Shown piece by piece: positions 1 to 33,900 of a stretch of 64,000 bases of DNA. The DNA comes from an uncultured Chloroflexia bacterium (GTDB taxonomy: Bacteria; Chloroflexota; Anaerolineae; JAAEKA01): positions 93,356 to 157,355 of the forward strand of contig CAVPXC010000012.1 of the NCBI GenBank assembly GCA_963709505.1, in the 5' to 3' direction. The notes beneath the pieces are model-generated. The model was not told the origin of the DNA, searched no databases, and saw only the letters and a program-made list of their open reading frames with translations. The translations under genes and the position numbers were made by a program. Each line of letters starts with the position of its first letter. Position 1 is the stretch's first letter.

Positions 1-126
1 CCTGGCGTATCAGCTTGCGCAGGAGCGGGCCGAAGGGATCGGGCAAGGTGGTTGCCGCCAAAGGCGTGATTCCCTCGACCGTTTCGAGATTGTCCACTTC
101 GTCGTGCAAGCTATCGTATTGGTTCA
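1..126 (-). CDS. hypothetical protein, partial (3' end beyond window start)
   Basis: Minus-strand ATG at 124-126 opens the frame MNQYDSLHDEVDNLETVEGITPLAATTLPDPFGP..., which runs to the window edge. No recognisable family. Confidence 0.2.
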
Positions 127-190
127 TTTTGCCTCAACTATTTAACCACATTCTTCTGCGATCAAATAATCCGGGTTGGGGGAAGGCCAC

Positions 191-1216
191 CTAGGAGTCC
201 TGCGACTCTGATACCCTCTTCACGCGCGCCGCATGGGCCTTCGCCCGGAGATCTTGGAAGAAATCAGTATCGACGATATCTTGAACTTGCTGCTGACGCT
301 TTGCTTCGTCAATTTCGATCTTGAGTTCCTCTACCTGGCGCTTTAGGCTGAGCTCCCGAACGCGGACTTTGTCCACCATGAAGGAGAACGTTTCGGCCAG
401 GTCGCTGATCTCATCGCGCAACAGACCGAATCTCGGTGCCATGCTTGCGAAGTCCTGGTCATAGTCTCCTTCGGCAACGCACTTGGCCATCCGCGTGAGC
501 CTGACAATCGGACGAGTTAGAAAACGCGTGAGCAAAAAGACCAGGACGGTTAGGGAACCGTAGGTAAAAAGAAATGCCAGAACGATTTTGGAACGGATGG
601 CTGACTGCACCTCAGATACGTAATCAGCCGCAAAGTCGATGCCGACCGCCCCCACATTTTCACCTTGTGAGTTCCTGATCGGACCATAAGCCGAGATCCA
701 CGTGCCCCATTTGTCCGAGTAAGGTTGGAGACGGAAAGCCACCTCGGATAGCCCGGTCAACATGAAATCCTGCGAAGGGGTGTAGGACTCCAGGAACTTC
801 GTTGCCTCCTCGGGATGGATTTTCCTGAATATGTCGCCAATCCAAAAAACCTCGCGATCCTGGGGGCTTTTGACATAGGAATAGGTATTTGCCCGCGGCT
901 CGATGTGGTTGACGTTTTCGATCCACGCCTGGTGGGTTTCGTAAAGTGGATCGTCCTTTGGCACACCGCTCTCATCGGGCTTAGCATTCTTGACCAGCGT
1001 CTCAAATTGGGCCCCATCGATGCCATCGATCGTGGCAGTGAGCGTACTGGTCATGTCCTGGGTGATCTGATTGAGCGCGGTCCTGGTACTAAAGTCATAG
1101 AACCACCAAAAGGCTAGCGCGAACACGACGCTGAAGACCAGGCTAAAGGCAATGATCAGCTTCCAGCTCAGGCTCAGCTCGATATGCCTGCGATGCGTCG
1201 GACGGTCTTGTGCCAT
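191..1216 (-). CDS. membrane sensor protein: two TM segments flanking a periplasmic Cache-like domain, a HAMP domain and a C-terminal ~45-aa conserved helical module, with no enzymatic output
   Basis: 341-aa ORF. The N-terminal TM segment is LIIAFSLVFSVVFALAFWWF. A second TM segment (IVLAFLFTYGSLTVLVFLL) is followed by a HAMP-like segment (TRPIVRLTRMAKCVAEGDYD...). The C-terminus is QVEELKIEIDEAKRQQQVQDIVDTDFFQDLRAKA, which recurs in the ORFs at 4169..6289 and 42030..42794. Confidence 0.75.
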   Translation of the reverse strand: MAQDRPTHRRHIELSLSWKLIIAFSLVFSVVFALAFWWFYDFSTRTALNQITQDMTSTLTATIDGIDGAQFETLVKNAKPDESGVPKDDPLYETHQAWIENVNHIEPRANTYSYVKSPQDREVFWIGDIFRKIHPEEATKFLESYTPSQDFMLTGLSEVAFRLQPYSDKWGTWISAYGPIRNSQGENVGAVGIDFAADYVSEVQSAIRSKIVLAFLFTYGSLTVLVFLLTRFLTRPIVRLTRMAKCVAEGDYDQDFASMAPRFGLLRDEISDLAETFSFMVDKVRVRELSLKRQVEELKIEIDEAKRQQQVQDIVDTDFFQDLRAKAHAARVKRVSESQDS

Positions 1217-1220
1217 TGGA

Positions 1221-1751
1221 TCACTCCATCACGGCGACTTGCCCTGCAATGATTGTTGCACCGGCCTCGTCGCTACGAACGAGATAGTCAGAGACAAAGC
1301 CGCGGTACGCTTCTTTTAGCGCCGTCGACAACTCCGAATAATAGCCAAATCTGCCACGACAGGTCATCGATCCGCAATGACACGTCAGGTCGAAATCAAA
1401 CTCCGGCCGCAAGCGCTCGTAGTGACAGTACTCGGTCATGGCGTAGTCGTAGCGGATTTCTTCGTCTTTGGCAATGTCGCGCAAGGCGTAGAAGTCCGGA
1501 TAGCCGTGCTTGTTGGTCTTGACGCCGGCATTCGGCTCGCACGAATGGTTCAGATAACGCGCCGGCGGATAGACGTCCAGGTGACGATCCCAGTCGATCT
1601 GTAAGGAGAACTCGCTTTGTTCGGGCACTACTCGACCGGTCGCGCTAAACAGAAAATCACCTCGCCTGAAGTCCTGCACGGCATAAACACCTAGTCGAAT
1701 ACCTTCGACGTATCTGAGATAAACAGTGATTGGGCGAAACTGCTCAGTCAT
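1221..1751 (-). CDS. SET-domain protein-lysine methyltransferase-like protein
   Basis: NHSCEPN motif, the conserved Tyr region EIRYDY and a post-SET Cys cluster (CHCGSMTCRG). The ATGA start/stop overlap with the upstream ATP-grasp gene indicates translational coupling. Confidence 0.8.
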   Translation of the reverse strand: MTEQFRPITVYLRYVEGIRLGVYAVQDFRRGDFLFSATGRVVPEQSEFSLQIDWDRHLDVYPPARYLNHSCEPNAGVKTNKHGYPDFYALRDIAKDEEIRYDYAMTEYCHYERLRPEFDFDLTCHCGSMTCRGRFGYYSELSTALKEAYRGFVSDYLVRSDEAGATIIAGQVAVME

Positions 1752-2719
1752 TGGTGATGGTCACAAACGGACACACTCGGCTCGCGAAGAAGCCGTGCGA
1801 TCAAATCGACGTAGGTCAGTCCGGCCTGCTCAGCAAGCGCAGGCATCGCCGAACGCGTCGGATGCAATCCTGGATTGGGGTTGATTTCCAAGAGCTGGGG
1901 GCGCTGGGCATGGTCCATACGGATATCTACCCGTCCGATGGCCTGGCAGTCAACCGTCCGATACGCGTGCCAGCCCAGGTCGCACAACTGATGCCGCAAG
2001 CTGCCATCGTCTACGGGACGAAAGGTCTGCGGGCTCCATGCCTTCTTGCCGGCCAGGTCTACCAAATGAATAGCCTCATGCTGGATTTCGACTACGCCCA
2101 GCACCTCGGCCGTGTCTCCTGAGCCAATGAGTCCGACGCTGAACTCGCGGCCTGGCAAGTAGTGCTCCACCAGTACCGGCTGCCTGAAAAACGCCAGCAG
2201 ATAGGCTACGCGCTGTGCGAGCGCCTCCGGCGTTCTCACGATCGACGCGGCGGCGATGCCTTTTGACGAGCCTTCCCGGGCCGGCTTGACAAACAACGGA
2301 AAGCCGTCCAGGTCGTCTCGCAGTGACGACAGATCGCCCATGTCCGCCACAAGCCAGAATTCCGGCGTGGGTAGGCCGGCAGAGCGCCAGAGTCGCTTGA
2401 TTATAGCTTTATCGATACAGAGCGTCAACGTGAACGCATCCGCACCTGTGCAAGGGATTTGCATCGCCTCGAGCAACGCAGGTACCTGGGCCTCGCGAGC
2501 ATGGCCCCAGCGGCCGGCCGCATAGTTGAAGACCAGATCGACTTTCTGGCCGTTGGCCAGAAAGCGCACCAGGTTGCCGATGTCGCCGATTCGCTTCACT
2601 TCGTGCCCGAGAGCCTCGATCGTTTTCGCCAAGTGATCAACTTCAAGGGCAGAGGCATACTCAGCCGTCCCTTCGGAGTCGTGTTTGTCCTGCAGCTCGT
2701 ATACCAGACCGACATTCAT
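1748..2719 (-). CDS. ATP-grasp ligase, D-alanine--D-alanine ligase family
   Basis: Ddl-like motifs (LVFNYAAGRWGHAREAQVPALLEAMQIPCTGADAFTLTLCIDK, EHYLPGREFSVGLIG). The true start is probably the internal MNVGLVYELQ at 2719, which overlaps the MFS stop by 1 nt (TAATG). Confidence 0.75.
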   Translation of the reverse strand: MNVGLVYELQDKHDSEGTAEYASALEVDHLAKTIEALGHEVKRIGDIGNLVRFLANGQKVDLVFNYAAGRWGHAREAQVPALLEAMQIPCTGADAFTLTLCIDKAIIKRLWRSAGLPTPEFWLVADMGDLSSLRDDLDGFPLFVKPAREGSSKGIAAASIVRTPEALAQRVAYLLAFFRQPVLVEHYLPGREFSVGLIGSGDTAEVLGVVEIQHEAIHLVDLAGKKAWSPQTFRPVDDGSLRHQLCDLGWHAYRTVDCQAIGRVDIRMDHAQRPQLLEINPNPGLHPTRSAMPALAEQAGLTYVDLIARLLREPSVSVCDHHQ

Positions 2720-4062
2720 TAGAAATCCAGCTTGTCGAGCACGCTGGCTCCACGTCCACGCCGCCGGAGCCGCCAATTGAGCAAACCCGTGTCGTAGATG
2801 GACCGTAAGCGCAGTGCCGCCCAAATGCCGACGACAGACGCCACCACAGCCGCCGCCAGATAGCCGTAGGCATAATTGGCAAGGCCCAGCCGCAGGCCTG
2901 CGAAGACGATTACCGCAGTGATCATACAGCCGCCCAGGGAGCCGGCCACAAACAGGTAGCTGTCCATAAAGATACTGACCCGGCCACGGCGTTCCTCCGG
3001 GACGAGCGCCTGAAACTGTTTGCGCGCCGTCTCGTCGACGGTGAACTGCGGCAGTTTCTGCAGAATCACGCCGCCTACTGCAGCAACGATGCTGGAGACC
3101 ATGGCCAGCATCCAGAGCGAACCGGCCAACGCGCAGACCGGGAGTATCAGAAAAGTGTTCTTCAGGCCGATCTTGGAAATGATCCGGCTCGCAAGAAACG
3201 CTTGCACGGCAATGGAGGCCACGGTGACGGCGAGACGATACAGGCTGTAAAAGGCCTGATAGCTCACCGGATTACTGAAGACCTGCTCGGACACCGTCAG
3301 AAAGTGAAACTCCAGAAAGGTCTCGCAAAAGATCATGGCAACAAGGATGATCGCCAGGAAGCGAAACACCGGGACGTGGCGCACAAAGTCCCAACCCTCC
3401 GTCAGCGTGGCGCCGACCGGTTCGACTTTGTACACTCGGGTGCGGATCTTGGCCCTCCGCAACCCAATGAACACCACAACAAGCGATGCCACATAGATCG
3501 TACTACAAAACAGCAAGACGCTGACAGTCCCCAAATTGAACTGAAGAGCCAGCGCGGGAAACACCAGGGCCAATAGAATCCCGGTTAAACGTCCCGCAAA
3601 ACCAAGGCTAGCGATCAGCGGAAAGAGCCGCTGCGACTGAGGCATGTCAAGCAGATCGCTCGCCAAAATCCAGAAGACCAGCGGGAAGAACAACCATTGT
3701 TGCTGAGCCACCAGGTAGAGCAGGCCGTAGTTGAGCCAGTCGGGCGTCTGGACGATGAACAAGATACTGAGAGTGGCAAAGGTCAACGCCAGCACGGCGC
3801 AGAGTACCTGCAACAGCTTCCTGCGGTCAAACCGGTCGATGATTAGCGACTGCGCTCCCGTGATCAACAGTGCTAGCCCAGCGTCCAGCATCCAGATGAA
3901 GAGGATGTCGTTGACGCCAACCTGGGTCAGAAAGTTGCTCACCGCCGTGATTTCGGCCAACGGTTGGGCAACCGAGTTTGCGAACAAGAGAAACCCCAGG
4001 GTCAGTACCAGGCCTGTTTCCCCGGGGCGGAGTCGGAACACCTGGCCCAGTCGTTGGATCAC
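2719..4062 (-). CDS. MFS-type transporter (12 predicted TM helices)
   Basis: 447-aa highly hydrophobic ORF with about 12 TM segments arranged in two halves. It is the first gene of the minus-strand operon MFS-ATPgrasp-SET-sensor. Confidence 0.65.
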   Translation of the reverse strand: MIQRLGQVFRLRPGETGLVLTLGFLLFANSVAQPLAEITAVSNFLTQVGVNDILFIWMLDAGLALLITGAQSLIIDRFDRRKLLQVLCAVLALTFATLSILFIVQTPDWLNYGLLYLVAQQQWLFFPLVFWILASDLLDMPQSQRLFPLIASLGFAGRLTGILLALVFPALALQFNLGTVSVLLFCSTIYVASLVVVFIGLRRAKIRTRVYKVEPVGATLTEGWDFVRHVPVFRFLAIILVAMIFCETFLEFHFLTVSEQVFSNPVSYQAFYSLYRLAVTVASIAVQAFLASRIISKIGLKNTFLILPVCALAGSLWMLAMVSSIVAAVGGVILQKLPQFTVDETARKQFQALVPEERRGRVSIFMDSYLFVAGSLGGCMITAVIVFAGLRLGLANYAYGYLAAAVVASVVGIWAALRLRSIYDTGLLNWRLRRRGRGASVLDKLDF

Positions 4063-4168
4063 AAGGACGCTCCTGATGGCCTAGTTGGGCTGGTGGGACG
4101 GCAGCCAGTACCGCTTTTGCGCGTAACGACCGTCAGGAAAGCACTGAACTAGCCACCCGCCATGCCGG

Positions 4169-6289
4169 TCAGGCAGGCTTGTCACGGTCTGCCTCGCCAG
4201 TGGGTGGGTTGCCTTCACTGCGCTCCGTCCGAAGCTTTCTGGCCTGCGCGGTCAGGTTCTGGAAGTATTCCGTATCGACGATCTCACCTACCTGCTTGCT
4301 TCGCTTGATCTCGTCGATCTCGATCCGCAGCTCCTTGATCTGGTTTTTTAGCTGCGTTTCACGTGATTGAACTTCCTGGGCGTTTTGAATGGCTACGGCC
4401 GCCTGGTTGGCCACGCTCTCCAACACCCGTAAGTTGTTGCTGTCGAAGGCGCTGCCCACCAGCTCGATGACACCGATCAGCTTGCCTCCAACCTGCAAGG
4501 GCACGCCCAGATAGGAGTACGGCGGGACGGCAAGACGACGCCAGGTGCGATCCAAGGTCGCCTCTTCCGGTGGGGCGGCTAAAAACGCAGTCATGTCGGC
4601 GATCAACAACCCTTCCCGCGTCTCGAGCAGCTTGTCGATCAGGCCCAAAGGCTGGGCATCGGCGCGTCCAGGCAATGGATATGTACGCCCAGATAGTTCC
4701 TGGGTCGAACCGCCACTGCCGGCGCTCGTTGTCACAGCGCTGCTGACTGGCTGAACAACGTCACCCTGAACGGCAAAACCATAGACGACCAGCTTGCCCT
4801 GGGTCGCATCGGCCAGGCTGATCTCGGCGGCATCGTAGGGAATGGCGCCGAGCAGCGAGGTGGCTAAGGAGGCCAGGGTCTCGTTGAGATCGATGCTCGA
4901 GGAAACCTTGCGGCCGATGTCGTAGATCGCTCGCAGCTCGGCCGTGCGCGCCTGTAAGGCGACAATCATGCGACTAAACACGCGCGCCAGGTGTCCCACC
5001 TCATCGCCTTGGTGGGTGACATCGGCGATTTGGCCAGGCATGAACGGTCGCTCCGCTTCAACTTCGCCAGCCGTGGTCGCCAAGGTGCTAATAGGTCGGG
5101 AGAGAGTACGTGCAACGAGCAGTGAGGCAATCACGGCTAGCACAGCCATCACCGCGGCGATTGCCAGGCCAAGCAAGCGCTGCCGCTCCACCGAGCCTAG
5201 GAAACTTGCTTCAGGCAAATCGACGACGACCATGGACAAACCAGATTGGCCTGCCGCTGCCGAACCCACTCCTTGTGTCGGGTTGGCCACGGGGGCAAAT
5301 GCGGCCACGTGAAACGCGCCGTTGCAGCGCTTCGCGTCGAAGGGGGCTGCCGGATCCGTGGGATGGCAGTAGCGCAAGCTGCCAGCCTTGGCCGACTGAA
5401 ACGCCTGGGCGACGGCGTCGCCCAGAGGCTGCACCGCCGGAATCGGTTCGGGTAAACGCGCTTCCTTTTCAGCCGGCGAGCACGTCGCCGCATTGTTGGG
5501 GCAAACGCCGCCTAGCGGCTTGGCTCCGGCAATCGCGGCCTGCGTTGTGGCGGAAAGCCCGCCCAGACTGCGGTACAACCAGTCGTCACCGCGCGATTGG
5601 CTCATCACAATGCCGTTCGGATCGACCAGATAAATGTTGATCGCTTCGCGCGCCTGCGATGCCACACCCTCGGTTTCAGCGTTCAAGGTCTCTCGAAAAA
5701 CGTCGTCGATGACCTTCTCGTCCAGATGGATTGCGACCGCGCCAACGACCGCCCCGTCTTCCTCGACCGGGGCAGAGAGACTGATACCCGGCTTGTCGTT
5801 GACCAGGTCACGCCGGAAGCTCGATGTATAAGCTTCGCCGGCCAGGGCTGCCTTGATGAAGTCACGCGTGGAGACATTGCGCCCGACCGTAGCCGGATCG
5901 GTGTGCGCCATGGCTGTACCGGTAGCGTTGTAGATGCCCACCGTGTCGATGTTGCCGTTGGCAAGCTGCATGTTGGATATGGCAGCGTTGAGGTCGCCTT
6001 GCCCACCCGGAGCGGCATCTGAGATCAAGGCCGCCGCCACCTGCGGATCGCTGGCGACGATACGCAGGAAGCCCTGGCTGTTGCTCAGGACGCTCGAGAT
6101 GTGCAGCGCGACGCTGCTGCCCAGGCGCGCCATGTTGTCCTGCGTCTGCTGCGTCAGCGCACCCACGCTGGACGCGCTGATAATCCAGGCAGCTAAGAGC
6201 AGGGGCACCAACGAAATCACCAGCATCACAACTAGCAGTTTTCTGGAGATCCGCCAATTTCGGAAGGACAACTTGTCTCGCATAGTCAT
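4169..6289 (-). CDS. membrane sensor protein: TM, Cache-like periplasmic domain, TM, HAMP, GAF, and the C-terminal conserved helical module
   Basis: 706 aa. N-terminal TM LLVVMLVISLVPLLLAAWII and a second TM LLGLAIAAVMAVLAVIASLLV, followed by a HAMP segment. GAF-like region (AIYDIGRKVSSSIDLNETLASLATSLLGAIPYDAAEISLAD...). C-terminal QIKELRIEIDEIKRSKQVGEIVDTEYFQNLTAQA. Confidence 0.75.
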   Translation of the reverse strand: MTMRDKLSFRNWRISRKLLVVMLVISLVPLLLAAWIISASSVGALTQQTQDNMARLGSSVALHISSVLSNSQGFLRIVASDPQVAAALISDAAPGGQGDLNAAISNMQLANGNIDTVGIYNATGTAMAHTDPATVGRNVSTRDFIKAALAGEAYTSSFRRDLVNDKPGISLSAPVEEDGAVVGAVAIHLDEKVIDDVFRETLNAETEGVASQAREAINIYLVDPNGIVMSQSRGDDWLYRSLGGLSATTQAAIAGAKPLGGVCPNNAATCSPAEKEARLPEPIPAVQPLGDAVAQAFQSAKAGSLRYCHPTDPAAPFDAKRCNGAFHVAAFAPVANPTQGVGSAAAGQSGLSMVVVDLPEASFLGSVERQRLLGLAIAAVMAVLAVIASLLVARTLSRPISTLATTAGEVEAERPFMPGQIADVTHQGDEVGHLARVFSRMIVALQARTAELRAIYDIGRKVSSSIDLNETLASLATSLLGAIPYDAAEISLADATQGKLVVYGFAVQGDVVQPVSSAVTTSAGSGGSTQELSGRTYPLPGRADAQPLGLIDKLLETREGLLIADMTAFLAAPPEEATLDRTWRRLAVPPYSYLGVPLQVGGKLIGVIELVGSAFDSNNLRVLESVANQAAVAIQNAQEVQSRETQLKNQIKELRIEIDEIKRSKQVGEIVDTEYFQNLTAQARKLRTERSEGNPPTGEADRDKPA

Positions 6290-6305: not shown

Positions 6306-7622
6306 CTAAATGCTCCAGTCGATTGTACTTGTGGCAGCCGTCGCTGCGTTTGGTTTGGATTCCGTAGGATGGCGGTAGGCAATCAACATGGTGATGTCGT
6401 CGAACTGATCGGCTGTATCGATGAAGTTAGTCAGTGTCGCTTCCGTGCGCTCCAACAGGCTCACGGCGGAGTTTCCAGGCACTGCCAGCAGGTCGAGCAC
6501 CCGTTTCTCGGTAAAGAACTCGCGCGCGGGGTTGCGGGCCTCGGGCACGCCATCGGTGTAGGTAAACAACATGTCACCCGGCTCGATTGTGGCCGAGTCG
6601 ACCTTGAACTCCACGCCTGCCATCATCCCGACTGCCGGCCCAGTGGATTTGAGCCTGCCCTTGAGCGTACCATCGGGACCGATGATGAACGTGGGTGTGT
6701 GGCCGGCATTGATGTAGGTCAGGAGACCAGTGGCTGGATCCAGGATAGCCATGAACACCGTGGCGAAATAGTTGAGCTCCATATGGTTGTCGTTGATGTA
6801 GTTGTTGGTCAGGGTGATAGCGTTTTTCAGGGCCGTGATGCCCGTCGTTGGCGCTGCCGATCCACGCAAGCTCGCTGCCTGGCGGCGACCGCCGGCCGGG
6901 GCATCCTGCAGCACATCAGCCCAGCTCAACGAGTAGTTCTGCTGGGCAAAGGCGCGAATCAGGCTGCGCACCAGGGCCATAAAGATCGCCGCAGGAATAC
7001 CCTTGTCCACTACGTCGCCGATGACCAGACCAATGCGCCGGCCCTGGAGCATTGGGAAGATGTCGTAGAAATCGCCGGCGACGTCGCGTGCTGGCAGGCA
7101 GTGCGCCGCAAGCTCCCAGCCGGCCGGTTGGGCAAAGTCCTTGACGAGAAAGCTGGCCTGAATATAGCGTGCGATTTCCACGTCATGCTCAATTTTGAGC
7201 AGCAACTCCTCCCGCTGCTGTACCTTTTGTTCATCTCGCAGGCGCTTGTTTTCCAGGTTGAGTTCCAACCGAGCCTGAAGCAGAGCCGGATTGATTGGTA
7301 ACCAGAGGAAGTCGTCAACACCGACCTGCTGGTACTTCTCGATTTCGGCTGTTTCAGCCGGCTGTACCAGAAGCAGGATCGGCATGCCACTCAGACTCTG
7401 GGTAACGCGCACATGGGCCGCCAATTCTCGACTGGTCATGTCGGGTAAAGCAGTGCCAAGCAGCATCAAATCAAACGGCTGCTGCGCGAGCGCTTCCGTG
7501 GCCTGGCGCCCGGTTTCCGCTAAAGTCACCTGGTGGCCGAGTTCTTGCAGTACACTCACGAGAATATTGCGGTCGGCCTGGTCACCGTCAACAATCAGGA
7601 GCTGGCTTGGTTTGTTCTCCAT
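6306..7622 (-). CDS. response regulator receiver domain fused to a PP2C-type (SpoIIE/RsbU-like) serine phosphatase
   Basis: REC domain (LLIVDGDQADRNILVSVLQELGHQVTLAETG...FDLMLLGTALPDM). PP2C motifs (GDFYDIFPM, GLVIGDVVDKGIPAAIFMA, FTYTDGVPEA). Start chosen at MENKPSQLLIVDGD with a GAGGA ribosome-binding site. Confidence 0.8.
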   Translation of the reverse strand: MENKPSQLLIVDGDQADRNILVSVLQELGHQVTLAETGRQATEALAQQPFDLMLLGTALPDMTSRELAAHVRVTQSLSGMPILLLVQPAETAEIEKYQQVGVDDFLWLPINPALLQARLELNLENKRLRDEQKVQQREELLLKIEHDVEIARYIQASFLVKDFAQPAGWELAAHCLPARDVAGDFYDIFPMLQGRRIGLVIGDVVDKGIPAAIFMALVRSLIRAFAQQNYSLSWADVLQDAPAGGRRQAASLRGSAAPTTGITALKNAITLTNNYINDNHMELNYFATVFMAILDPATGLLTYINAGHTPTFIIGPDGTLKGRLKSTGPAVGMMAGVEFKVDSATIEPGDMLFTYTDGVPEARNPAREFFTEKRVLDLLAVPGNSAVSLLERTEATLTNFIDTADQFDDITMLIAYRHPTESKPNAATAATSTIDWSI

Positions 7623-7781
7623 ACTGGAATCCTCGAAAAAAGAAAAACGCCGGGCAGCCTCATCGTCCATCTTCGGCGCTGGCTGTCCAGCATAGCTCAC
7701 GAAGTCATCGCTTTCGTAGAGCAGGCTTCGTCGGACGGATCGGCCCCAGGCGATATGAAACGAGCATTAATCTTCGATCTA

Positions 7782-8225
7782 TCAAACAGGCGCTTGCGCT
7801 GCTGGCAGCTTCACGACGAAGATGTTGTAGTTACATCCGTCGGCGTAGCGATAGAGGAACTCATCGACGTTTTGGACGGCCAGATAGACACCCAGGCCGC
7901 CGATCATGCGGTTTTCCAGGGGCGAGTCCAGATCATCCGGCTGCGGCCGGTTCAGCGGATTGTACGCCACAGCCGAGTCGATCAGTGTGATTATAAGGCT
8001 ATCGGGTCCGATCTCGGCTCTAACCTCGACGTCACCTGTGAGACCGTGCTCCTCATAGCCATGGATGACAATATTGGAGCTAATCTCATCAACCGCCAGT
8101 TGCAGACGATAGGTGCGCTTAGGGTCCAGTCCGGCCTCGGCTGCGGCCTCTTTGACGAATTCGCGAATCGGTCCCAGCGAGTTCAGCGTCCCGGGAACGA
8201 CTGCAGAGCGTGCGTTTGTTTTCAT
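7782..8225 (-). CDS. anti-sigma factor / serine protein kinase, RsbW/SpoIIAB-like (GHKL ATPase)
   Basis: HATPase_c-like sequence (LAVDEISSNIVIHGY...GGLGVYLAVQNVDEF). Start at the internal MKTNARSAVV. Confidence 0.7.
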   Translation of the reverse strand: MKTNARSAVVPGTLNSLGPIREFVKEAAAEAGLDPKRTYRLQLAVDEISSNIVIHGYEEHGLTGDVEVRAEIGPDSLIITLIDSAVAYNPLNRPQPDDLDSPLENRMIGGLGVYLAVQNVDEFLYRYADGCNYNIFVVKLPAAQAPV

Positions 8226-8390
8226 ACAATTCGTCATACCATAGGTGTGTCTCAGCAACGAGAGTTTTGTTTGGCTTCCGCCACGGGCAGTCCCCCTCGA
8301 CGTACGCCGAAAGGGCGACGTGTCATGAAGGAGCGACGAAGCACGGGTCCCCAGAGCCAATCGCTGGGGACCCGTATTCGAGAGAGAGGA

Positions 8391-8726
8391 CTAAAAAACC
8401 TCGATCACGGTCGGATCGTACGTGTCGAGCATGAACACGCTGTGATGGAAGCCGGTCATCTCGATCGTTTCCAGGACAGCGTCGTGCGCGCCGACGATGT
8501 AGATGTCGACACTGCCCATCTTCTGTTTGGCGAACACCAGGCCACGCAAGCCGGCGCTCGCCATGTAATCCAGGTTGGTCATGTCCAACACGAGCCGCTC
8601 AACCTCGGTATGCGAGATCTGGTCTACAGCGTCACGCAACAGCCCGGCGACAGACGCGTCCAGTTCGCCGGTGAGGGTGATGATGGCGATGCGGCCTCGA
8701 TTTTCTGTGAGTAGTGTGAATGCCAT
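8391..8726 (-). CDS. STAS-domain anti-sigma factor antagonist (RsbV/SpoIIAA-like)
   Basis: 111 aa. Sequence IAIITLTGELDASVAGLLRDAV...LVLDMTNLDYMASAGLRGLV, with the conserved phosphorylatable Ser in the DYMASAGL context. Confidence 0.85.
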   Translation of the reverse strand: MAFTLLTENRGRIAIITLTGELDASVAGLLRDAVDQISHTEVERLVLDMTNLDYMASAGLRGLVFAKQKMGSVDIYIVGAHDAVLETIEMTGFHHSVFMLDTYDPTVIEVF

Positions 8727-28299: not shown

Positions 28300-28400
28300 G
28301 AAAGAGCCGTTGTAGTGCAGGTGGACAGGTGGCAGGTAGCAGGTGGCATACAGTTGCTACTTGCCACTTGCCACTTGCAACCTGCAACCTGCAACTTGCC
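28300..28400. repeat. heptamer-repeat hairpin element (GGCAGGT/GGCAAGT arrays)
   Basis: caggtggacaggtggcaggtagcaggtggcatacagttgctacttgccacttgccacttgcaacctgcaacctgcaacttgcc. Confidence 0.8.
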
Positions 28401-28447
28401 CACCCTTACGAAGGCCGATAGTTGACGCCAACCTCGTCATCTGTAAA

Positions 28448-30553
28448 ATGCAAAGCCAGGTTATGATCCCTACACTGCTATCCTTGAAACTGTTCGGTGG
28501 GTTCGAACTTCGACTAAACGACGTACCTGTCGACGGCTTTGTCTCAAACAAGGCGCGCGCGCTGTTAGCGTTCCTGGTTGTGACCAATAGACCACAGCCG
28601 CGCCCCGTTCTAGCGGAGTTGCTGTGGGGCGACAAGCCCGACAACGTGGCCAACTCCAACCTCCGCATGGCGCTGTCTAATCTTCGCAAGCTCGTTGGTC
28701 CTTGCCTCGACATCACTCGCAGCGATGTGGCCCTCGTCAAGGGACGCCTCTACGATGTGGATGTAGAGCACTTCCAGACACGTCTCAGTCAGGTCGATCT
28801 GGCAACTCTGGAGAGCAACTCCAGCTTGCTGGAGGAAGCAATCGCGCTGTATCGCGGCGACTTTCTCGAGGGCCTATCGGTGCGCGATGCATCGAGCTTT
28901 GAGGAATGGGCGCTGCGCCAGCGAGAGCGCTATCGCCAAATGGCCCTGCAAGCACTCTACCGACTGTCCATGGTCCACACCGACCGCGGCAACTATGCCG
29001 CGGCCATTGATTACACCACCCGGCTGTTGGACCTCGAACTCTGGCAGGAGGAGGGCCACCGGCAGATGATGCTTCTGCTGGCCATCACCGGCCAGCGCGC
29101 CGCCGCCCTGGATCAGTACGCGGCTTGCCGGCGCATCCTGGCCGAGGAGCTGCACGTCGATCCCATGCCCGAGACCAATGCCTTATTGGCCCGCATCAGG
29201 GCCATGCCCGAACAGCGGGACATACCGGCGCAAGCCGGCGCAGGAGCGCCTGCCCTTTTTGGTCGCCAAGACGAGCACGCCTGGATGCTACAGCAATGGA
29301 AAGCCGCTCAAGACCAACGCAGCAAAATCACCTTGATCGAAGGTGAGGTAGGCATCGGCAAGACCCGCCTGGTCGAGGAAGTTCTGCGCTTTGCGACGGC
29401 GGCGGGCGCCACGATTCTGCGGGCGCGCTGTCACGATTTCGGCGACGACATGCCCTTCCATCCGTTCATCGAGATTCTCCGCCAGGCGCTGGATCGGCAG
29501 CCGGACCTGCCTGGCCGCCTCTCCCCGGTGTGGCTAGCAGAGCTGTCTGGACTGCTGCCGGAGCTGACCGATGCCATGCCAGACCTGCTCGAACTGGCGC
29601 TGCGCCCACCCGACGCTAACACGAGACAGCGCCTGTTCGAGGCCATTTCACAACTCTTGCGCGCAACGCAGCATCAGCCGTTGGCCGAGGCCGCACGGCT
29701 GGCTACGAATGGCAAAGGACCGTTGAAGCAAGACAGTACCCTGCTCGCCGCAGCGGTCAAACCCAAGGAACGATGGACCGTTCTCTTCCTCGACGATTTG
29801 CATTGGATCGATAGCGCCAGCGTCGATCTCCTGCGCTACCTGGCTCACCGGCTCAACGGGTGCACCCTGTGGTTCATCGGCGCCTATCAGCGCGAGGGCA
29901 TGGATGCCGATCACCCTTTCCTGAAGCTGCGCCGCTCCCTGGTCTCTGAGGGCCGCGCCGACGTCCTCCGGCTCGAACGTTTGCCTGCCAGCGCGATCAC
30001 CGAATGGATCAAGGCGATGCCCGGCTTGACAGACGACCAGGTCGGCCGGCTATCCAAGTACGCAGTGACTCGTTCGGAGGGCAATCCCTTCGTCACCAAC
30101 CATCTCTTGAAAGAGATGCGCGAGAACGCTTCCCTACGAGAGGTGAGAGGGGTTTGGCGTTTAGAGGATGGGTGGATCCCATCGAGCAGCGCAATTCCTT
30201 TCGCCGTGCGCGAGGTGATCATCCTCAAGCTGAGCCGGGTGAGCCCGGCGGCGCGCGCCTTGCTCGGAGAGGCCGCCGGCCTGGGGGAAAGCTTCAACCT
30301 GCAAAGACTCCGCCAAGTCTTTGGGATGGAAGGGGACCTAGCCGACGCACTAGGTGAATGCTTGCATCAGGGCCTCGTTAGCCCGAGCCACGGCGACACG
30401 TACCGCTTTTCACACGCCATGATTCGCGAGATCGCCTACGAGCGGCTGTCGCCATGGCACCGTATGAAGGCCCATGCCTGGCTCACCCAAAGCCCCTCAT
30501 CGGAGACACCCATCCGGGTGCCATCCGTTCTGGCGGCTGGTCAATTTCGTTGA
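28448..30553 (+). CDS. SARP/AfsR-family transcriptional regulator: OmpR-type winged-helix DNA-binding domain, BTAD, AAA+ (NB-ARC-like) ATPase and a C-terminal helical region
   Basis: Winged-helix region (LFGGFELRLNDVPVDGFVSNKARALLAFLVV). BTAD region (YRGDFLEG...EWALRQRERYRQMALQAL). Walker A GEVGIGKTRL. Start chosen at MQSQVM (28448), because the ORF-finder N-terminus is a translation of the upstream repeat. Confidence 0.75.
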   Translation: MQSQVMIPTLLSLKLFGGFELRLNDVPVDGFVSNKARALLAFLVVTNRPQPRPVLAELLWGDKPDNVANSNLRMALSNLRKLVGPCLDITRSDVALVKGRLYDVDVEHFQTRLSQVDLATLESNSSLLEEAIALYRGDFLEGLSVRDASSFEEWALRQRERYRQMALQALYRLSMVHTDRGNYAAAIDYTTRLLDLELWQEEGHRQMMLLLAITGQRAAALDQYAACRRILAEELHVDPMPETNALLARIRAMPEQRDIPAQAGAGAPALFGRQDEHAWMLQQWKAAQDQRSKITLIEGEVGIGKTRLVEEVLRFATAAGATILRARCHDFGDDMPFHPFIEILRQALDRQPDLPGRLSPVWLAELSGLLPELTDAMPDLLELALRPPDANTRQRLFEAISQLLRATQHQPLAEAARLATNGKGPLKQDSTLLAAAVKPKERWTVLFLDDLHWIDSASVDLLRYLAHRLNGCTLWFIGAYQREGMDADHPFLKLRRSLVSEGRADVLRLERLPASAITEWIKAMPGLTDDQVGRLSKYAVTRSEGNPFVTNHLLKEMRENASLREVRGVWRLEDGWIPSSSAIPFAVREVIILKLSRVSPAARALLGEAAGLGESFNLQRLRQVFGMEGDLADALGECLHQGLVSPSHGDTYRFSHAMIREIAYERLSPWHRMKAHAWLTQSPSSETPIRVPSVLAAGQFR

Positions 30554-30554
30554 T

Positions 30555-30720
30555 GCTACAAGTTGCAAGTGGCAGGTGGCAGGTGGCGGATGGCAGGTGG
30601 CAGGTGGCAGGTGGCAAGTGGCAAGTGGCAAGTGGCAAGTGGCAGGTTGCAGAACACTTATCACTTGCCACCTGCCACCTGCCACTTGTAACCTGCCACC
30701 TGCGAGCCGAACTGCCGATG
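30555..30720. repeat. heptamer-repeat hairpin element, asymmetrically expanded (about 14 GGCAGGT/GGCAAGT units on the left, about 6 complementary units on the right)
   Basis: caagttgcaagtggcaggtggcaggtggcggatggcaggtggcaggtggcaggtggcaagtggcaagtggcaagtggcaagtggcaggttgcag ... cacttgccacctgccacctgccacttgtaacctgccacctgc. Confidence 0.8.
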
Positions 30721-30927
30721 CCGCTGACTTGCCGAATTGGGACTTGCTAGCTACAATTCCGCAACGTATCATGTCTTGAGTTGCATCGAAGCCTTCGTTG
30801 CCAACACAAGTAAAATCATCAGGGGCATAGCTGCCTGGCGTAAAGTTGCACGACCGATCTATGCTGTTGTGTCGAATTGGCGCTACCAACGGCCTGACTG
30901 CCTAGCTATCAAGGAGATAGAGTAACA

Positions 30928-33900
30928 ATGTTTGAGCCCATAAGAGATGTCGCACGTCGTCCTGTTCACAGATTGCGGGGCAAGCACCGTATCCGACCGG
31001 CTCTTGGTACCGCACTCATGCTTGCAGCCATGATCGTCGTGTCGCTGGCCTATGCCACGCCGTCGACATGGGCGAGTGCCCCACCGGCCCAGCCAGCCAC
31101 ACCGATTGTGGTCAATTCGCTCGGGGACGAAGCGGACGCCTACCCCGGCGACGGGATATGCCAAACTGCAAGCGGCAGCGGCTGCACCCTTCGTGCGGCG
31201 ATCCAAGAGGCAGAGAGTGCTAGTTCGCCCGGCCTTGACGTGATTGACCTAACCGGACTGAGCGGTACAATCAGCCTAACGAACGGCGCGTTGCCGGACA
31301 TCAGGGAAGATCTAAACGTCCTCGGCCCGCTACTGATTACCTTAACGATTGACGGCCTTCATGCCGCGCGTCCCCTATTGATCCAGAGAAATGCAACAGT
31401 TCTCGTCGCCAACCTAACGGTCGCCAACGGCAGCAGTACCCGTTTTGGCGGGGCGATCTCAAACAGTGGCACTCTCACGTTGCAGAACGCAACCATCGTT
31501 GGCAGCAACGCCCATGTGACAGGAGGAGCGATTTTCAACAGTAGTGGGGCTTCGTTGTGGCTGAAGGATAGCTTAATCGGCGGTGACACGTCGAGCGACG
31601 CCAACTCCGCGTTGTTCGGCGGAGGCCTCTACAATGGCCGCGGCGCGGTAATCATCGAAGACAGCCAGATCTCGCACAACGAGGCGGCAGCGCTTGGCGG
31701 CGGGATTTATAACTCAGGTGGTAAAGTCACCACGCTTGGCACGACCCGAATCGAAAGCAACCACGCAATCGGCAGCGGCGGAGGAATCTTCAATGGAATC
31801 GGTGGATCACTTGAGGTTTCCAACACAAGCATTGACCGCAATTCGGCCGGCGGATCCGGCGGCGGAATCTATAACCTCGGCGCGCAAACGTTGGTAAACG
31901 CAACCGTAGGAGAGAACACGGCAGTCCACTACGGCGGTGGCATCGCCAACACCCATGGCGCCGTCACCAATCTGTACAACGTGACCATTGCCGGCAACGG
32001 CGCCAACGTTATTTCGGACCATGGCGACTTCCGAGGCAGCGGCGGCGGCGGCATCTTCAGCAGTGCCGCAGTTGGGTTGCAGAACTCCTTGATCAGCGGC
32101 AATTACGACAACTCTACCGTAACCAGTTACCCTGACTGCTACGCTTCGGAATCGGCCTCCTTCCCTGTCAACGCGCAAAATCTCATCGGAAATAACGCAG
32201 GCTGCGCCGCTTACTTCACTAACGGCGTAAACGGTAATCTGGTCGGTACGGCCACGGCCCCACTCGATCCGATGCTCGGAGCCTTCTCAGATCCCGGCGT
32301 TTATCCGCTGCAGGCCGGCAGCCCGGCCGTCGATGCGGGCGACCCAAGCGGCTGCGATGATAGCCACGGCGGTGTTTTGACTGACGATCAGCGCGGCGTG
32401 CTGCGCCCCCAGGGTCCTACCTGCGACATTGGCGCCTACGAAGCCGCGCGGCCTGTGATGAACGACCAAAGCTTTGAGCTGCCGGAGAACAGCCTTAACG
32501 GCACCTTGGTTGGCACGGTTGTCGCAACGGATCCCGACTTGGGTGTACTGACCTACGCGATCACCGGCGGCAACACCGACGACGCATATAGTCTGGACCA
32601 GTCGAACGGCAACCTGACCGTCAACAACAGCAGCGCGCTCAACTACGAGACGACTCCCCAATTCAATCTCTCGGTCGTAGTCACCGACGCCGAAGGTTTC
32701 ACGGACTCTTCGACCGTCACTGTCGATCTAATCAACGTCAACGAGCCCCCGATTGCCGTCGACGACGTTTATACCGCGACACAAGCGTTGCCGTTGACCG
32801 TACCTGCCCCTGGCGTGCTGGAGAACGACATTGATCCCGACCTGGCTAACGTGCTGACGGCAGCCCAACTCACCAGCCCGGCCTATGGTGACGTGAGGTT
32901 GGCCATCGACGGCGGGTTCGTATACACGCCTACCATCGGATTCGCGGGAGAAGACGCTTTCACCTACTTCGCCAGCGATGGAGTGTTTACGAGCACGGCT
33001 ACCGTTTCCATCACCGCAACCTACGATCCGCTGATCGTCCGCAACACCGCCGATAGCGGTGCAGGCTCTCTCAGGGAAGCCATTAATTATGCCACTCAAC
33101 TGGGCCTCCCAGCCACGATCACCTTCGACATCCCTGGCCCTGGCGCCCACACCATTTACCCTGTCATACCATTGCCAGACCTTGCACCATACGTGACGAT
33201 CGACGCAACAACTCAGCCATCCGGCACGGTCGAACTCAACGGCAGTCTGTCACCGGCTGGCACTACAGGGCTGTTCGTCTTCGGCGGCGAGCAAGCCAGC
33301 GCTCCATCGTCAACGGGCGAGCTCAGCGCACTATCTGTTGCCGCCATCCGCGGGCTGGTGATTAAGGGCTTCCCAGGCGACGGCATTCGCATCGCGGATG
33401 CCTATGATATTCTCGTCGAAGCCAACACGGTAATCAGCAATACCGGAAACGGCATCAGCGTATCCAGCGGAACAGGTATTGCCATTCATGGCAATAGCAT
33501 CGCCGAAAACGGCAGACTGGGCATCGATTTGAATGACGACGGCGTCACTCCGAACGACATCGGCGACCCGGATTCAGGACCGAACACGCTGCAAAACACC
33601 CCAGTGCTGCTGCGCGCCGTCCCGATCAACTCCGGCATTACCTTCGAGGGCCGGCTCAATAGCTTGCCGATGACCCGAACCTACACCCTCGAGTTTTTCC
33701 GGAGCTCGACGTGCGATCCCAGCCAGTACGGCGAGGGCCAGGTTTTCCTTGGCGCCCACGATGTGGAGACCAACGGCGCTGGCAACGCCAGGTTCTCGAC
33801 AATCCTGCCCGTCGTCGTACCAACCGGGCAATTCGTGACCGCTACCGCTACCGATCCGGATGGCAACACCTCCGAGTTCTCCCCGTGCATCGTCACCGGC

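What the first reader, a model, noticed from the sequence alone, without database searches (positions are those of the whole stretch)
191..6289. A ~45-aa C-terminal helical module is the only shared, and only output-side, element of three otherwise unrelated signalling proteins
Three proteins in this window end with the same motif. Consensus: (K/R)xQ(V/I)xEL(K/R/H)IEIDE(A/I/T)(K/R)(R/K)xxQV(Q/G/S)(D/E)I(V/T)(D/E)T(D/E)(F/Y)FQ(D/N/E)L..(K/R)A. The first is the Cache-HAMP sensor at 191..1216 (...LKRQVEELKIEIDEAKRQQQVQDIVDTDFFQDLRAKA). The second is the Cache-HAMP-GAF sensor at 4169..6289 (...LKNQIKELRIEIDEIKRSKQVGEIVDTEYFQNLTAQA). The third is the soluble cNMP-binding protein at 42030..42794 (...KKQIAELHIEIDETRKALQVSEITETEYFQELKQRA). 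None has a kinase, cyclase, GGDEF/EAL, MCP or DNA-binding output. The inputs differ (two periplasmic Cache-like domains, one cyclic-nucleotide pocket). I infer that this module is a common output or docking element. It resembles an amphipathic heptad helix, not an HK DHp/CA domain. I do not recognise it as a named domain.
Basis: partly seen in the sequence, partly recalled or inferred. Interest (0 to 1): 0.8.

Follow-up and report, generated by a model that had tools for sequence, protein, structure and literature searches.

The report
Unnamed sensor tail linked to MinD-like ATPases
Three sensor proteins in this window end in the same unannotated 60-residue helix, which closes thousands of bacterial sensor proteins and nearly always sits beside a MinD/ParA-type ATPase gene, pointing to an undescribed signalling route.

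Summary
Three ORFs (191..1216 -, 4169..6289 -, 42030..42794 +) end in one ~60-aa module, consensus RExxLKxQVxELRIEIDExKRxxQVxEIxETDYFQxLxxKAxxLR. No other copy is in the window.

No Pfam-A, NCBIfam, PADLOC or PDB sequence covers it. It is a large family: 2,496 cluster representatives at 50% identity. It is almost always the extreme C-terminus, behind Cache, CHASE3/4HB, GAF, cNMP, REC or hybrid-kinase inputs. It occurs in Chloroflexota, Cyanobacteria, Acidimicrobiia and Deinococcota. AlphaFold2 predicts one long helix continuous with HAMP AS2.

The module behaves as a non-enzymatic output. But it is not the only shared element, because all three proteins also carry HAMP. The proposed partners (REC-PP2C, STAS, RsbW) are rare neighbours (2-6 of 80 loci).

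The recurrent neighbours are a ~251-aa MinD/ParA-like ATPase and a small winged-helix protein with a basic tail. The ATPase is in 48 of 80 loci in each of two sets, and directly downstream in 36 of 62 cases. Fusions join module to wHTH and ATPase to wHTH. An 88%-identical contig shows the wHTH gene and two such ATPase genes just past the window's left edge.

Best guess: the module couples sensors to this ATPase/wHTH pair. Physical docking is inferred, not shown.

The parts
203..388 (-). C-terminal module of protein 1 (residues 277-338 of the 341-aa ORF 191..1216)
   Evidence: Profile match E = 2e-26, with 3 residues left after it. Sequence ...RELSLKRQVEELKIEIDEAKRQQQVQDIVDTDFFQDLRAKAHAARVKR.
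191..1216 (-). Protein 1: two TM segments, an unassigned periplasmic domain, HAMP (residues 228-285, nt 362..535) and the module
   Evidence: Pfam HAMP at 29.1 bits against a cut-off of 25; nothing else matches. About 350-aa orthologues occupy the same operon position in 47 of 80 genome loci.
4208..4390 (-). C-terminal module of protein 2 (residues 634-694 of the 706-aa ORF 4169..6289)
   Evidence: Profile match E = 7e-28, with 12 residues left after it.
4169..6289 (-). Protein 2: dCache_1, TM, HAMP, GAF, module
   Evidence: Pfam dCache_1 5e-17, GAF 6e-12, HAMP 6e-5. The same architecture is seen in P0062, P0108 and P0127.
42615..42791 (+). C-terminal module of protein 3
   Evidence: Profile match E = 1e-25, ending at the last residue.
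42030..42794 (+). Protein 3: soluble cNMP_binding, HAMP, module (the ATG at 42030 gives 254 aa, the length of its orthologues)
   Evidence: Pfam cNMP_binding 1e-18. The upstream stretch matches HAMP with hhalign probability 99%, E = 5e-18. AF2 shows AS2 running without a break through the module. Orthologues of 245-270 aa are in L081-L105.
2..130 (-). First 43 codons of a small winged-helix (wHTH) gene directly downstream of protein 1, cut off by the window edge
   Evidence: tblastn with the L001 wHTH protein gives E = 6e-8. Contig L161 is 88% identical and collinear. It shows the full 103-aa gene followed by two MinD/ParA-like genes of 249 and 251 aa.
2719..4062 (-). 447-aa polytopic membrane protein ('c1', weak MFS_1 match) with a conserved C-terminal tail ...NWRLRRRGRGASVLDKLDF
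   Evidence: Pfam MFS_1 1.7e-8. Found in 47 of 80 genome loci, just upstream of the protein-1-type sensor. The tail motif resembles the wHTH tail.
1221..2824 (-). Enzyme cassette between c1 and protein 1: a Ddl-like ATP-grasp (1748..2824) and a SET-domain protein (1221..1751)
   Evidence: Pfam Dala_Dala_lig_C 5e-29 and SET 1.6e-12. In other loci this slot holds a KamA-like radical-SAM protein, a GNAT or a pre-ATP-grasp ligase.
6306..8726 (-). REC-PP2C (6306..7700), RsbW-like kinase (7782..8360) and STAS (8391..8726) upstream of protein 2: a local accessory, not the general partner
   Evidence: Pfam SpoIIE 1e-42 and Response_reg, HATPase_c_2 2e-21, STAS 5e-18. These families occur in only 2-6 of 80 related loci per set.
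38314..41985 (+). Class III cyclase, AAA_16, TPR protein immediately upstream of protein 3: the probable source of its cyclic-nucleotide input
   Evidence: Pfam Guanylate_cyc, AAA_16 and TPR. The same pairing occurs in L049 and L051. A cyclase is present in 9 and 11 of 80 loci.

Best explanation
The module is a previously unannotated, non-enzymatic output domain of about 60 residues. It is a single long helix that continues the last helix of the preceding HAMP or GAF domain. Because HAMP and GAF proteins are dimers, it should form a parallel coiled-coil stalk that carries a strip of invariant charged residues (R11, E12, E25, D27, E37, R55).

It terminates sensors with many kinds of input: Cache, CHASE3/4HB, cNMP, GAF, receiver domains and hybrid kinases. 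I propose that signal-driven rearrangement of HAMP or GAF is passed down this stalk. That would change how the stalk engages a dedicated MinD/ParA-type ATPase of about 251 aa (deviant Walker A HSFRGGTGKS) and its partner. The partner is a small winged-helix protein with a basic C-terminal tail. The wHTH domain also occurs fused to the ATPase, fused to the sensor, or inserted in amino-acid-permease-like membrane proteins.

The downstream effect is probably control of amino-acid or peptide transport and metabolism genes or proteins that fill these operons.

Shown:
- the domain family and its terminal position;
- its predicted helical nature;
- the conserved gene triad of sensor, ATPase and wHTH;
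- the fusions.

Inferred:
- physical docking of the module to the ATPase or the wHTH;
- the direction of signal flow;
- the physiological target.
For: Family and position:
- The profile finds 2,496 representatives at E <= 1e-3 and 1,650 at <= 1e-10. The match lies at the extreme C-terminus in nearly all of the 150 listed.
- The same holds in the two locus sets of 80 loci each.
- Architectures among 105 full-length representatives: HAMP 78, dCache_1 22, GAF 21, REC 16, cNMP 4, CHASE3 4.

Conservation:
- 15 positions are at least 87% conserved over 347 unique modules from several phyla.
- The module is better conserved than the adjoining HAMP: 41-45% identity between the window paralogues against 26% for protein 3 versus protein 1 HAMP.

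Structure:
- AF2 gives pLDDT 91.6 and 90.0, with one helix continuous with AS2.

Link to the ATPase and wHTH:
- A MinD/ParA-like gene is present in 48 of 80 loci of the genome set and 48 of 80 of the independent metagenome set.
- It is directly downstream on the same strand for 36 of 62 module genes that have at least 600 nt of downstream sequence.
- The link holds for every input type checked. TM Cache-HAMP. REC-HAMP. cNMP-HAMP. Hybrid kinase P0067, followed by the ATPase and then the wHTH. CHASE3-HAMP-GAF P0090.
- Loci with several module genes have matching numbers of ATPase genes (L108, L158).
- Fusions: P0099, P0168 and L026 join module and wHTH. L009 2637..3743 joins the ATPase and wHTH.
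- In this organism's near relative L161, the wHTH gene and two ATPase genes follow protein 1.
Against: - No direct evidence of binding exists, and no multimer model could be run.
- No module-ATPase fusion was seen.
- About 40% of loci show no ATPase gene within reach. These include the closest relatives of protein 3 (L081, L092) and the 64 kb of this window itself.
- Neighbourhood statistics come from loci ranked by similarity to two query types, so they are not an unbiased sample of the 2,496 representatives.
- The association is with module-bearing proteins. It cannot formally be separated from the HAMP domain that precedes the module in most of them.
- Operons are also rich in transporters, which could be the direct targets instead.
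Confidence: 0.55

Rival explanations
1. Cargo tag rather than signal output. The module would be the element by which sensor proteins or clusters are recognised and positioned or segregated by the ParA/MinD-type ATPase, as ParA-like PpfA positions cytoplasmic chemoreceptor clusters. The wHTH tail would act as the ATPase-stimulating partner.
For: The gene association is the same as for the best explanation. The ATPase belongs to the MinD/ParA/FleN clade. Most host taxa named are filamentous, where positioning matters (my own knowledge of these taxa).
Against: Module proteins have every kind of signal-input domain and no other output. That fits signalling better than passive cargo. Soluble 240-aa REC-HAMP-module proteins are odd cargo. 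Pairing is one ATPase per sensor gene rather than one per cluster.
Confidence: 0.15
2. Direct regulator of the adjacent transporter. The acidic face of the stalk would bind the basic C-terminal tails of the c1 membrane protein or the permease-wHTH protein and gate transport. The ATPase would be an accessory.
For: c1 lies beside the protein-1-type sensor in 47 of 80 loci. SDF symporter, SBP_bac_5 or permease genes flank other types. The c1 and wHTH tails share a motif of a basic cluster followed by hydrophobic-x-D-x-L/W-D/E-F/L.
Against: c1 is almost absent from the second set (1 of 80), while the ATPase stays at 48 of 80. Many minimal operons are only sensor plus ATPase, with or without wHTH. 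Charge complementarity is conjecture.
Confidence: 0.12
3. Purely structural coiled coil. The module would be a dimer-stabilising cap on HAMP or GAF with no specific partner, and output would occur by some other route.
For: It is predicted as a plain long helix with heptad-like hydrophobic spacing. The nearest structural matches are generic coiled coils.
Against: Near-invariance of charged residues (R11 100%, E12 98%, E25 91%, D27 99%, E37 89%, R55 99%) across phyla and architectures is far beyond what dimerisation needs. These proteins have no other output domain. The gene linkage and fusions are tight.
Confidence: 0.1
4. One reading: a docking helix for the partner-switching proteins (REC-PP2C, STAS, RsbW).
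For: In this window these three genes lie directly upstream of protein 2 on the same strand. PP2C, RsbW or STAS genes recur in a few related loci. One wHTH is fused to an RsbW-like kinase and GNAT just downstream of a module gene (L078).
Against: These families occur in only 2-6 of 80 loci per set, against 48 for the ATPase. They are absent next to proteins 1 and 3 here.
Confidence: 0.05
5. Remnant of a histidine-kinase DHp domain or S-helix whose catalytic domain was lost by truncation or frameshift.
For: It follows HAMP as DHp or S-helix segments do. The N-terminal V-x-A-R-E-x-x-L resembles the S-helix ERT region (resemblance recalled from my own knowledge). UniRef calls some members 'histidine kinase'.
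Against: There is no Pfam HisKA match on the module. HisKA matches in family members lie at the N-terminus of HisKA-REC-HAMP-module proteins. Only one canonical H-box was found in the set, in P0067 and far upstream of the module. The stop codon position is conserved in hundreds of homologues, and the next gene is unrelated. No HATPase_c fragment lies downstream in the window.
Confidence: 0.03

Closest known systems
Signalling helix (S-helix) and HAMP output helices of sensor kinases and cyclases
   Same: A heptad-patterned helix continuous with HAMP AS2 or a GAF C-terminal helix, presumably a parallel dimeric coiled coil that transmits conformational signals.
   Different: An S-helix is a linker between a sensor domain and a catalytic domain. 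This module ends the protein. It has its own invariant signature, L-[RK]-I-E-I-D ... Q-V-x-E-I-x-[ED]-[TS]-[DE]-[YF]-F ... R, and no curated model matches it.
MCP signalling domain of chemoreceptors
   Same: A non-enzymatic helical output placed after HAMP. It works by docking partner proteins rather than by catalysis (for the module this is inferred).
   Different: There is no sequence relation and no Pfam MCPsignal match. The module is about 60 residues of single helix rather than a hairpin of about 250 residues. Its associated partner is a MinD/ParA-type ATPase, not CheA/CheW.
MinD/ParA/FleN-type ATPase regulatory pairs (MinD-MinE, ParF-ParG, FleN-FleQ)
   Same: The linked ATPase is a MinD/ParA-clade P-loop protein; the nearest solved relatives are archaeal MinD 1hyq, Aquifex MinD and FleN. 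Its wHTH partner carries a flexible basic tail, like the ATPase-stimulating tails of ParG and ParB (from my own knowledge). FleN shows that such ATPases can regulate transcription factors.
   Different: This subfamily reaches no equivalog cut-off. It has Arg in place of the signature Lys (HSFRGGTGKS). It is paired with sensor proteins. The module shows no similarity to MinE (hhalign probability 0.2%).
Streptomyces conservons (CvnA sensor, CvnB roadblock, CvnC DUF742, CvnD GTPase)
   Same: A sensor with HAMP, a small wHTH-like protein (weak DUF742 match, E = 0.0045) and a P-loop NTPase encoded together as a signalling unit. The resemblance in logic is my own reading.
   Different: The NTPase here is a MinD/ParA ATPase, not a Ras-like GTPase. 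There is no roadblock protein. The sensor lacks a kinase domain and ends in the module.

Membership tests
HisKA / DHp (histidine-kinase dimerisation and phospho-acceptor domain) | Profile match to HisKA-type models over the segment | tested here: not met
   No HisKA match on any of the three window proteins at E <= 1. In family members with a HisKA match, it lies at the N-terminus, far from the module.
HisKA / DHp (histidine-kinase dimerisation and phospho-acceptor domain) | Conserved phospho-acceptor His (H-box) followed by an HATPase_c catalytic domain | tested here: not met
   No position of the module has His as a conserved residue. The module is followed by a stop codon after 0-40 residues. 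No HATPase_c lies downstream.
S-helix (signalling helix) | A 40-50-residue heptad helix predicted to form a coiled coil | tested here: met
   AF2 predicts a continuous helix at pLDDT 90-92. Conserved hydrophobic positions are spaced 3 or 4 residues apart.
S-helix (signalling helix) | Located between an N-terminal sensory domain and a C-terminal catalytic or output domain | tested here: not met
   The module is the C-terminus in nearly all homologues.
S-helix (signalling helix) | Central conserved E-R-T signature | tested here: inconclusive
   The module has an invariant R11-E12 near its start, which is not the ERT triplet. No S-helix profile is available in these libraries for a formal comparison.
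HAMP (for the segment upstream of the module, not the module itself) | Match to PF00672, or to Pfam-defined HAMP regions | tested here: met
   Protein 1 scores 29.1 bits against a cut-off of 25. Protein 2 scores 23.7 bits (E = 6e-5, just under the cut-off). For protein 3, hhalign gives probability 99.0% and E = 5e-18 against ten Pfam-defined HAMP regions.
MCP signalling domain | Profile match to MCPsignal | tested here: not met
   Not among the Pfam matches of the window proteins or the top families of 105 homologues.
MinE-type MinD-binding helix | Sequence or profile similarity to MinE | tested here: not met
Partner-switching module (docking to PP2C, STAS or RsbW) | Consistent co-occurrence with PP2C, STAS and RsbW genes | tested here: not met
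   PP2C in 6 and 3, RsbW in 5 and 2, STAS in 4 and 2 of 80 loci in the two sets.
MinD/ParA ATPase family (for the linked neighbour gene) | Deviant Walker A P-loop and a match to CbiA, ParA or AAA_31 models | tested here: met
   Pfam AAA_31 2e-15, ParA 7e-14, CbiA 4e-10. Consensus HSFRGGTGKS and DTD motifs. NCBIfam MinD models match, but below their equivalog cut-offs. The nearest PDB entries are archaeal MinD and FleN.
Module-ATPase physical complex | Direct binding of the module to the MinD/ParA-like ATPase or the wHTH protein | not testable with these tools
   Only single-chain structure prediction is available, and no contact or PAE output is returned. The support is gene linkage and fusions only.

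The most novel reading that the evidence does not exclude
The module marks a distinct, undescribed class of bacterial signal transduction. In it, sensors with any kind of input (one-component-like, receptor-like, or fed by phosphorelay through REC) have no enzymatic or DNA-binding output. They would instead signal through a conserved coiled-coil stalk to a dedicated MinD/ParA-type ATPase switch and a tail-bearing winged-helix adaptor. Those in turn would control transporters or transcription. It would be a P-loop-ATPase-based pathway parallel to two-component, chemotaxis and partner-switching systems, expanded in filamentous Chloroflexota and Cyanobacteria.
Probability: 0.4. Interest if true: 0.9.

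Novelty: new variant of a known kind. Interest (0 to 1): 0.78.

Why it matters
Thousands of bacterial 'HAMP domain-containing proteins', and some mis-named 'histidine kinases', have had no identifiable output.

- This work defines their common terminal domain and gives a signature for annotating them.
- It names a concrete, testable partner set: a MinD/ParA-type ATPase and a tail-bearing wHTH protein.
- If the coupling is real, ParA/MinD ATPases would gain a role as switches downstream of environmental, cyclic-nucleotide and phosphorelay sensors. They are best known for positioning and division.
- It would also explain how many sensors in Chloroflexota and filamentous Cyanobacteria signal.
- Cultured, sequenced hosts exist for experiments. 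One is Herpetosiphon aurantiacus DSM 785, with sensor ABX03906.1 and ATPase ABX03903.1. Others are Spirulina major and Leptolyngbya.

Tried and rejected
- **HisKA/DHp idea.** Twelve of 105 homologues match HisKA. The match is an N-terminal HisKA in HisKA-REC-HAMP-module proteins, not the module.
- **MinE-like contact helix.** hhalign gives probability 0.2%.
- **Word-index protein search with the module.** It returned only proteins of 39-114 aa. It was useful for building the profile but not for architectures.
- **Exact look-ups that found nothing or were uninformative.** Window protein 3 and P0014 were not on record. The P0045 contig ends at the gene.
- **Literature searches.** Motif strings and combinations of MinD/ParA, HAMP, receiver, wHTH and DUF742 found nothing on this module or gene triad. 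One query was malformed. This library is incomplete, so absence is not proof.
- **Natural fusion proteins.** I considered predicting their structure to see a module-wHTH interface. I did not, because the tool returns no contacts or PAE and would probably refuse those sequences.

Full report
**1. The observation**

The three ORFs are present as described: 191..1216 (-) of 341 aa, 4169..6289 (-) of 706 aa, and 41982/42030..42794 (+) of 270/254 aa. Their last ~65 residues align with 41-45% identity and 21 invariant columns. A six-frame motif scan finds only these three copies in the window. A family profile scores them at E = 2e-26, 7e-28 and 1e-25, so they are homologous.

Pfam and NCBIfam see the following:
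- protein 1: HAMP;
- protein 2: dCache_1, HAMP and GAF;
- protein 3: cNMP_binding;
- none of the three has a catalytic or DNA-binding output, and no model covers the shared C-terminus.

Two details of the finding need correction. First, Pfam does not recognise the periplasmic domain of protein 1 as Cache. Second, the module is not the only shared element. Excluding the module, the stretch upstream of it in protein 3 matches ten Pfam-defined HAMP regions with hhalign probability 99.0% and E = 5e-18. The three proteins are therefore X-HAMP-module, X-HAMP-GAF-module and cNMP-HAMP-module.

**2. A large, unannotated family**

I built a profile from the window copies plus fragments found by the word-index search. 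It retrieves 2,496 cluster representatives (50% identity clusters) at E <= 1e-3 and 1,650 at E <= 1e-10.

The match almost always ends 0-40 residues before the stop codon, followed by a short basic tail. This holds in the 150 listed proteins (90-962 aa) and in the two sets of 80 genomic loci. Exceptions are rare and are addressed in section 4.

Pfam matches among 105 full-length representatives (details):

| Domain | Members |
|---|---|
| HAMP | 78 |
| dCache_1 | 22 |
| GAF | 21 |
| Response_reg | 16 |
| HisKA | 12 |
| 4HB_MCP | 5 |
| cNMP_binding | 4 |
| CHASE3 | 4 |
| WD40 | 3 |
| PAS | 3 |

The HisKA matches belong to HisKA-REC-HAMP-module proteins and lie at the N-terminus, not on the module.

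More than 438 genomic loci were confirmed. They come from:
- Chloroflexota (Anaerolineae, Caldilineae, Thermoflexales, Herpetosiphon);
- Cyanobacteria (Leptolyngbya-like genera, Nodosilinea, Elainella, Spirulina);
- Acidimicrobiia;
- Deinococcota.

Public names are only 'HAMP domain-containing protein' or 'histidine kinase'. PDB sequence, Foldseek and PADLOC searches give nothing. Five literature searches found no description.

**3. Anatomy**

Over 347 unique modules, the conserved positions are:

| Position | Conservation |
|---|---|
| R11 | 100% |
| L22 | 100% |
| D27 | 99% |
| V35 | 99% |
| F44 | 99% |
| R55 | 99% |
| E12 | 98% |
| L47 | 98% |
| L15 | 97% |
| I24 | 96% |
| I38 | 95% |
| A51 | 93% |
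| E25 | 91% |
| E37 | 89% |
| I26 | 87% |

Numbering starts at the F of FSFMVDKV in protein 1. The hydrophobic positions follow 3-4 spacing, with two register shifts near residues 30-34 and 39-42. The invariant charged residues are not needed for a plain zipper.

Because HAMP and GAF domains are dimeric (established knowledge), the module should be a parallel coiled-coil stalk of about 9 nm. This is inference.

The module is better conserved than the HAMP next to it: 41-45% identity between the window paralogues against 26% for protein 3 versus protein 1 HAMP.

**4. Surroundings: the main new result**

I fetched two independent sets of 80 loci. One came from genomes and is biased to protein-1-like sensors. 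The other came from metagenomes and is biased to soluble cNMP and REC types.

Loci (of 80) holding each neighbour family:

| Neighbour family | Genome set | Metagenome set |
|---|---|---|
| MinD/ParA-like ATPase (~251 aa) | 48 | 48 |
| Small wHTH protein | 25 | 17 |
| Cyclase | 9 | 11 |
| PP2C | 6 | 3 |
| RsbW | 5 | 2 |
| STAS | 4 | 2 |

For 36 of 62 module genes with at least 600 nt of downstream sequence, the ATPase gene is the very next gene on the same strand.

The link holds for every input type I could check:
- TM Cache-HAMP;
- REC-HAMP;
- cNMP-HAMP;
- hybrid kinase-REC-REC-module P0067, followed by a 255-aa ATPase and an 87-aa wHTH;
- CHASE3-HAMP-GAF-module P0090.

Loci with two or three module genes carry two or three ATPase genes (L108, L158).

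The ATPase matches Pfam CbiA, ParA and AAA_31. It stays below the NCBIfam MinD cut-offs. Its consensus is HSFRGGTGKS. Its nearest solved relatives are archaeal MinD, Aquifex MinD and FleN.

The wHTH protein has weak IclR, MarR, TrmB and DUF742 HTH matches. It ends in a basic cluster followed by P-x-x-[IL]-[WF]/D-[LF].

Fusions tie the three parts together:
- P0099, P0168 and L026 are sensor-module-wHTH;
- L009 2637..3743 is ATPase-wHTH;
- a ~970-aa amino-acid-permease-like protein carries the wHTH as an insert, and it follows the ATPase in a recurrent three-gene unit of REC-HAMP-module, ATPase and permease-wHTH.

No module-ATPase fusion was seen.

**5. This window**

Protein 1 belongs to a conserved cluster. 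The window's order on the minus strand is:
- STAS, RsbW-like, REC-PP2C;
- protein 2;
- c1, a 447-aa polytopic membrane protein at 2719..4062;
- a Ddl-like ATP-grasp (1748..2824) and a SET protein (1221..1751);
- protein 1;
- the start of a wHTH gene (130..2), cut by the window edge.

Contig L161 is 88% identical and collinear with window 4084..1. It continues with the complete 103-aa wHTH gene and two MinD/ParA-like genes of 249 and 251 aa. The window therefore stops just short of the partner genes.

Protein c1 is in 47 of 80 genome-set loci. Its C-terminal tail (...NWRLKRRQRGKSVLDKLDF) resembles the wHTH tail.

Protein 3 follows a class III cyclase-AAA_16-TPR gene, as in L049 and L051. This plausibly supplies its ligand. 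Its nearest relatives (L081, L092) also lack an adjacent ATPase, whereas many other cNMP-type members have one.

Other operon members are amino-acid or peptide related:
- SDF symporter;
- Asp/Glu racemase;
- SBP_bac_5;
- glutaminase;
- KamA-like radical SAM;
- GNAT;
- ATP-grasp ligases.

**6. Most likely mechanism**

Shown:
- a terminal, helical, highly conserved, non-catalytic domain behind diverse inputs;
- a conserved gene triad of sensor-module, MinD/ParA-like ATPase and tail-bearing wHTH;
- the fusions.

Inferred: HAMP or GAF rearrangements propagate down the coiled-coil stalk and change its engagement with the ATPase, the wHTH, or both. That would switch the ATPase cycle and so control wHTH-bearing effectors such as transcription or transporters.

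I put about 0.55 on this overall. The family and its output role are near certain. The functional link to the ATPase/wHTH pair is at about 0.75. Direct docking of the module is at about 0.45.

Rivals:
- a cargo-positioning tag for a ParA-type system (0.15);
- direct gating of adjacent transporters through their basic tails (0.12);
- a merely structural zipper (0.10), disfavoured by the invariant charged residues;
- a truncated kinase or S-helix remnant (0.03), refuted by the conserved stop position, the absence of His and the absence of a CA domain.

**7. Comparison with known systems and novelty**

The module works like an S-helix or HAMP output helix, and conceptually like the non-enzymatic MCP signalling domain. 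It fails the membership tests for HisKA, S-helix (by position), MCPsignal and MinE.

The gene triad resembles ParF-ParG or FleN-FleQ pairs and the Streptomyces conservon in logic. That comparison rests on my own knowledge and not on homology.

I file it as a new variant of a known kind: a new, unannotated output-domain family with a new partner class. A categorically new signalling pathway remains possible at about 0.4. Interest is 0.78. The mechanism itself is still inferred from genomic context.

Noticed in passing
window 2719..4062 (-); L001-L080 cluster c1: This 447-aa polytopic membrane protein has only a weak MFS_1 match. It ends in a very conserved cytoplasmic tail (...YDxSLLNWRLKRRQRGKSVLDKLDF). 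The tail's motif, a basic cluster followed by hydrophobic-x-D-x-L-D/E-F, resembles the C-terminal tail of the small wHTH proteins. They may share a binding partner.
   Followed up: partly
window 1221..2824 (-); equivalent slot in L001-L080: The slot between c1 and the protein-1-type sensor holds a variable enzyme cassette. Here it is a Ddl-like ATP-grasp plus a SET-domain protein. Elsewhere it holds a KamA-like radical-SAM protein, a GNAT, or (downstream) a pre-ATP-grasp ligase. This suggests amino-acid, peptide or protein-tail modification chemistry under control of the sensor.
   Followed up: partly
window 38314..41985 (+) and 42030..42794 (+): A class III cyclase-AAA_16-TPR protein of 1,223 aa overlaps the alternative TTG start of the cNMP-HAMP-module gene (41982) by 4 nt. 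The same pairing recurs in L049 and L051. It looks like a self-contained unit that makes and reads a cyclic nucleotide.
   Followed up: partly
window 28343..37814 (+): A BTAD-AAA_16 regulator (28343..30553) is followed by two tandem ORFs of identical length (1,112 aa each; 30928..34266 and 34476..37814). The first has cadherin, Big_9 and beta-helix domains. The second has no Pfam match at E <= 1e-5.
   Followed up: no
L078 6192..8057; L142 408..1862: Two unusual fusions were seen. One is an RsbW-like HATPase_c_2 + GNAT + tail-bearing wHTH protein directly downstream of a module gene. The other is a cNMP-HAMP-module protein extended by about 240 residues that look like an HD-type phosphohydrolase domain (by eye only, not scanned), one of the rare cases where the module is not terminal.
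   Followed up: partly
P0038, P0051, P0120, P0181 (metagenome proteins): P0038 (58 aa) joins the first two strands of CsrA (Pfam PF02599) to the module. This may be a chimera or a mis-call. P0051, P0120 and P0181 carry a duplicated second half of the module (TETDYFQxLxxKxxxL twice).
   Followed up: no
L001-L080 record titles: Most host taxa are filamentous or multicellular: Anaerolineae, Caldilineae, Herpetosiphon, Leptolyngbya-like cyanobacteria, Spirulina and Microthrixaceae. Several genomes have many paralogues, for example three loci from Tildeniella torsiva among the best 80 and three genes in this 64-kb window.
   Followed up: no
MinD/ParA-like genes in L001-L166 (consensus from 92 sequences): The linked ATPase subfamily has Arg where MinD and ParA have the signature Lys of the deviant Walker A (HSFRGGTGKS). 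At about 251 aa it is shorter than E. coli MinD; whether it lacks a C-terminal membrane-targeting helix was not checked.
   Followed up: partly
window 42030..42794 (+): PADLOC reports matches of protein 3 to Pycsar TIR effectors (E = 4e-18). These cover only the cyclic-nucleotide-binding domain (residues 32-152) and do not indicate a defence system.
   Followed up: yes
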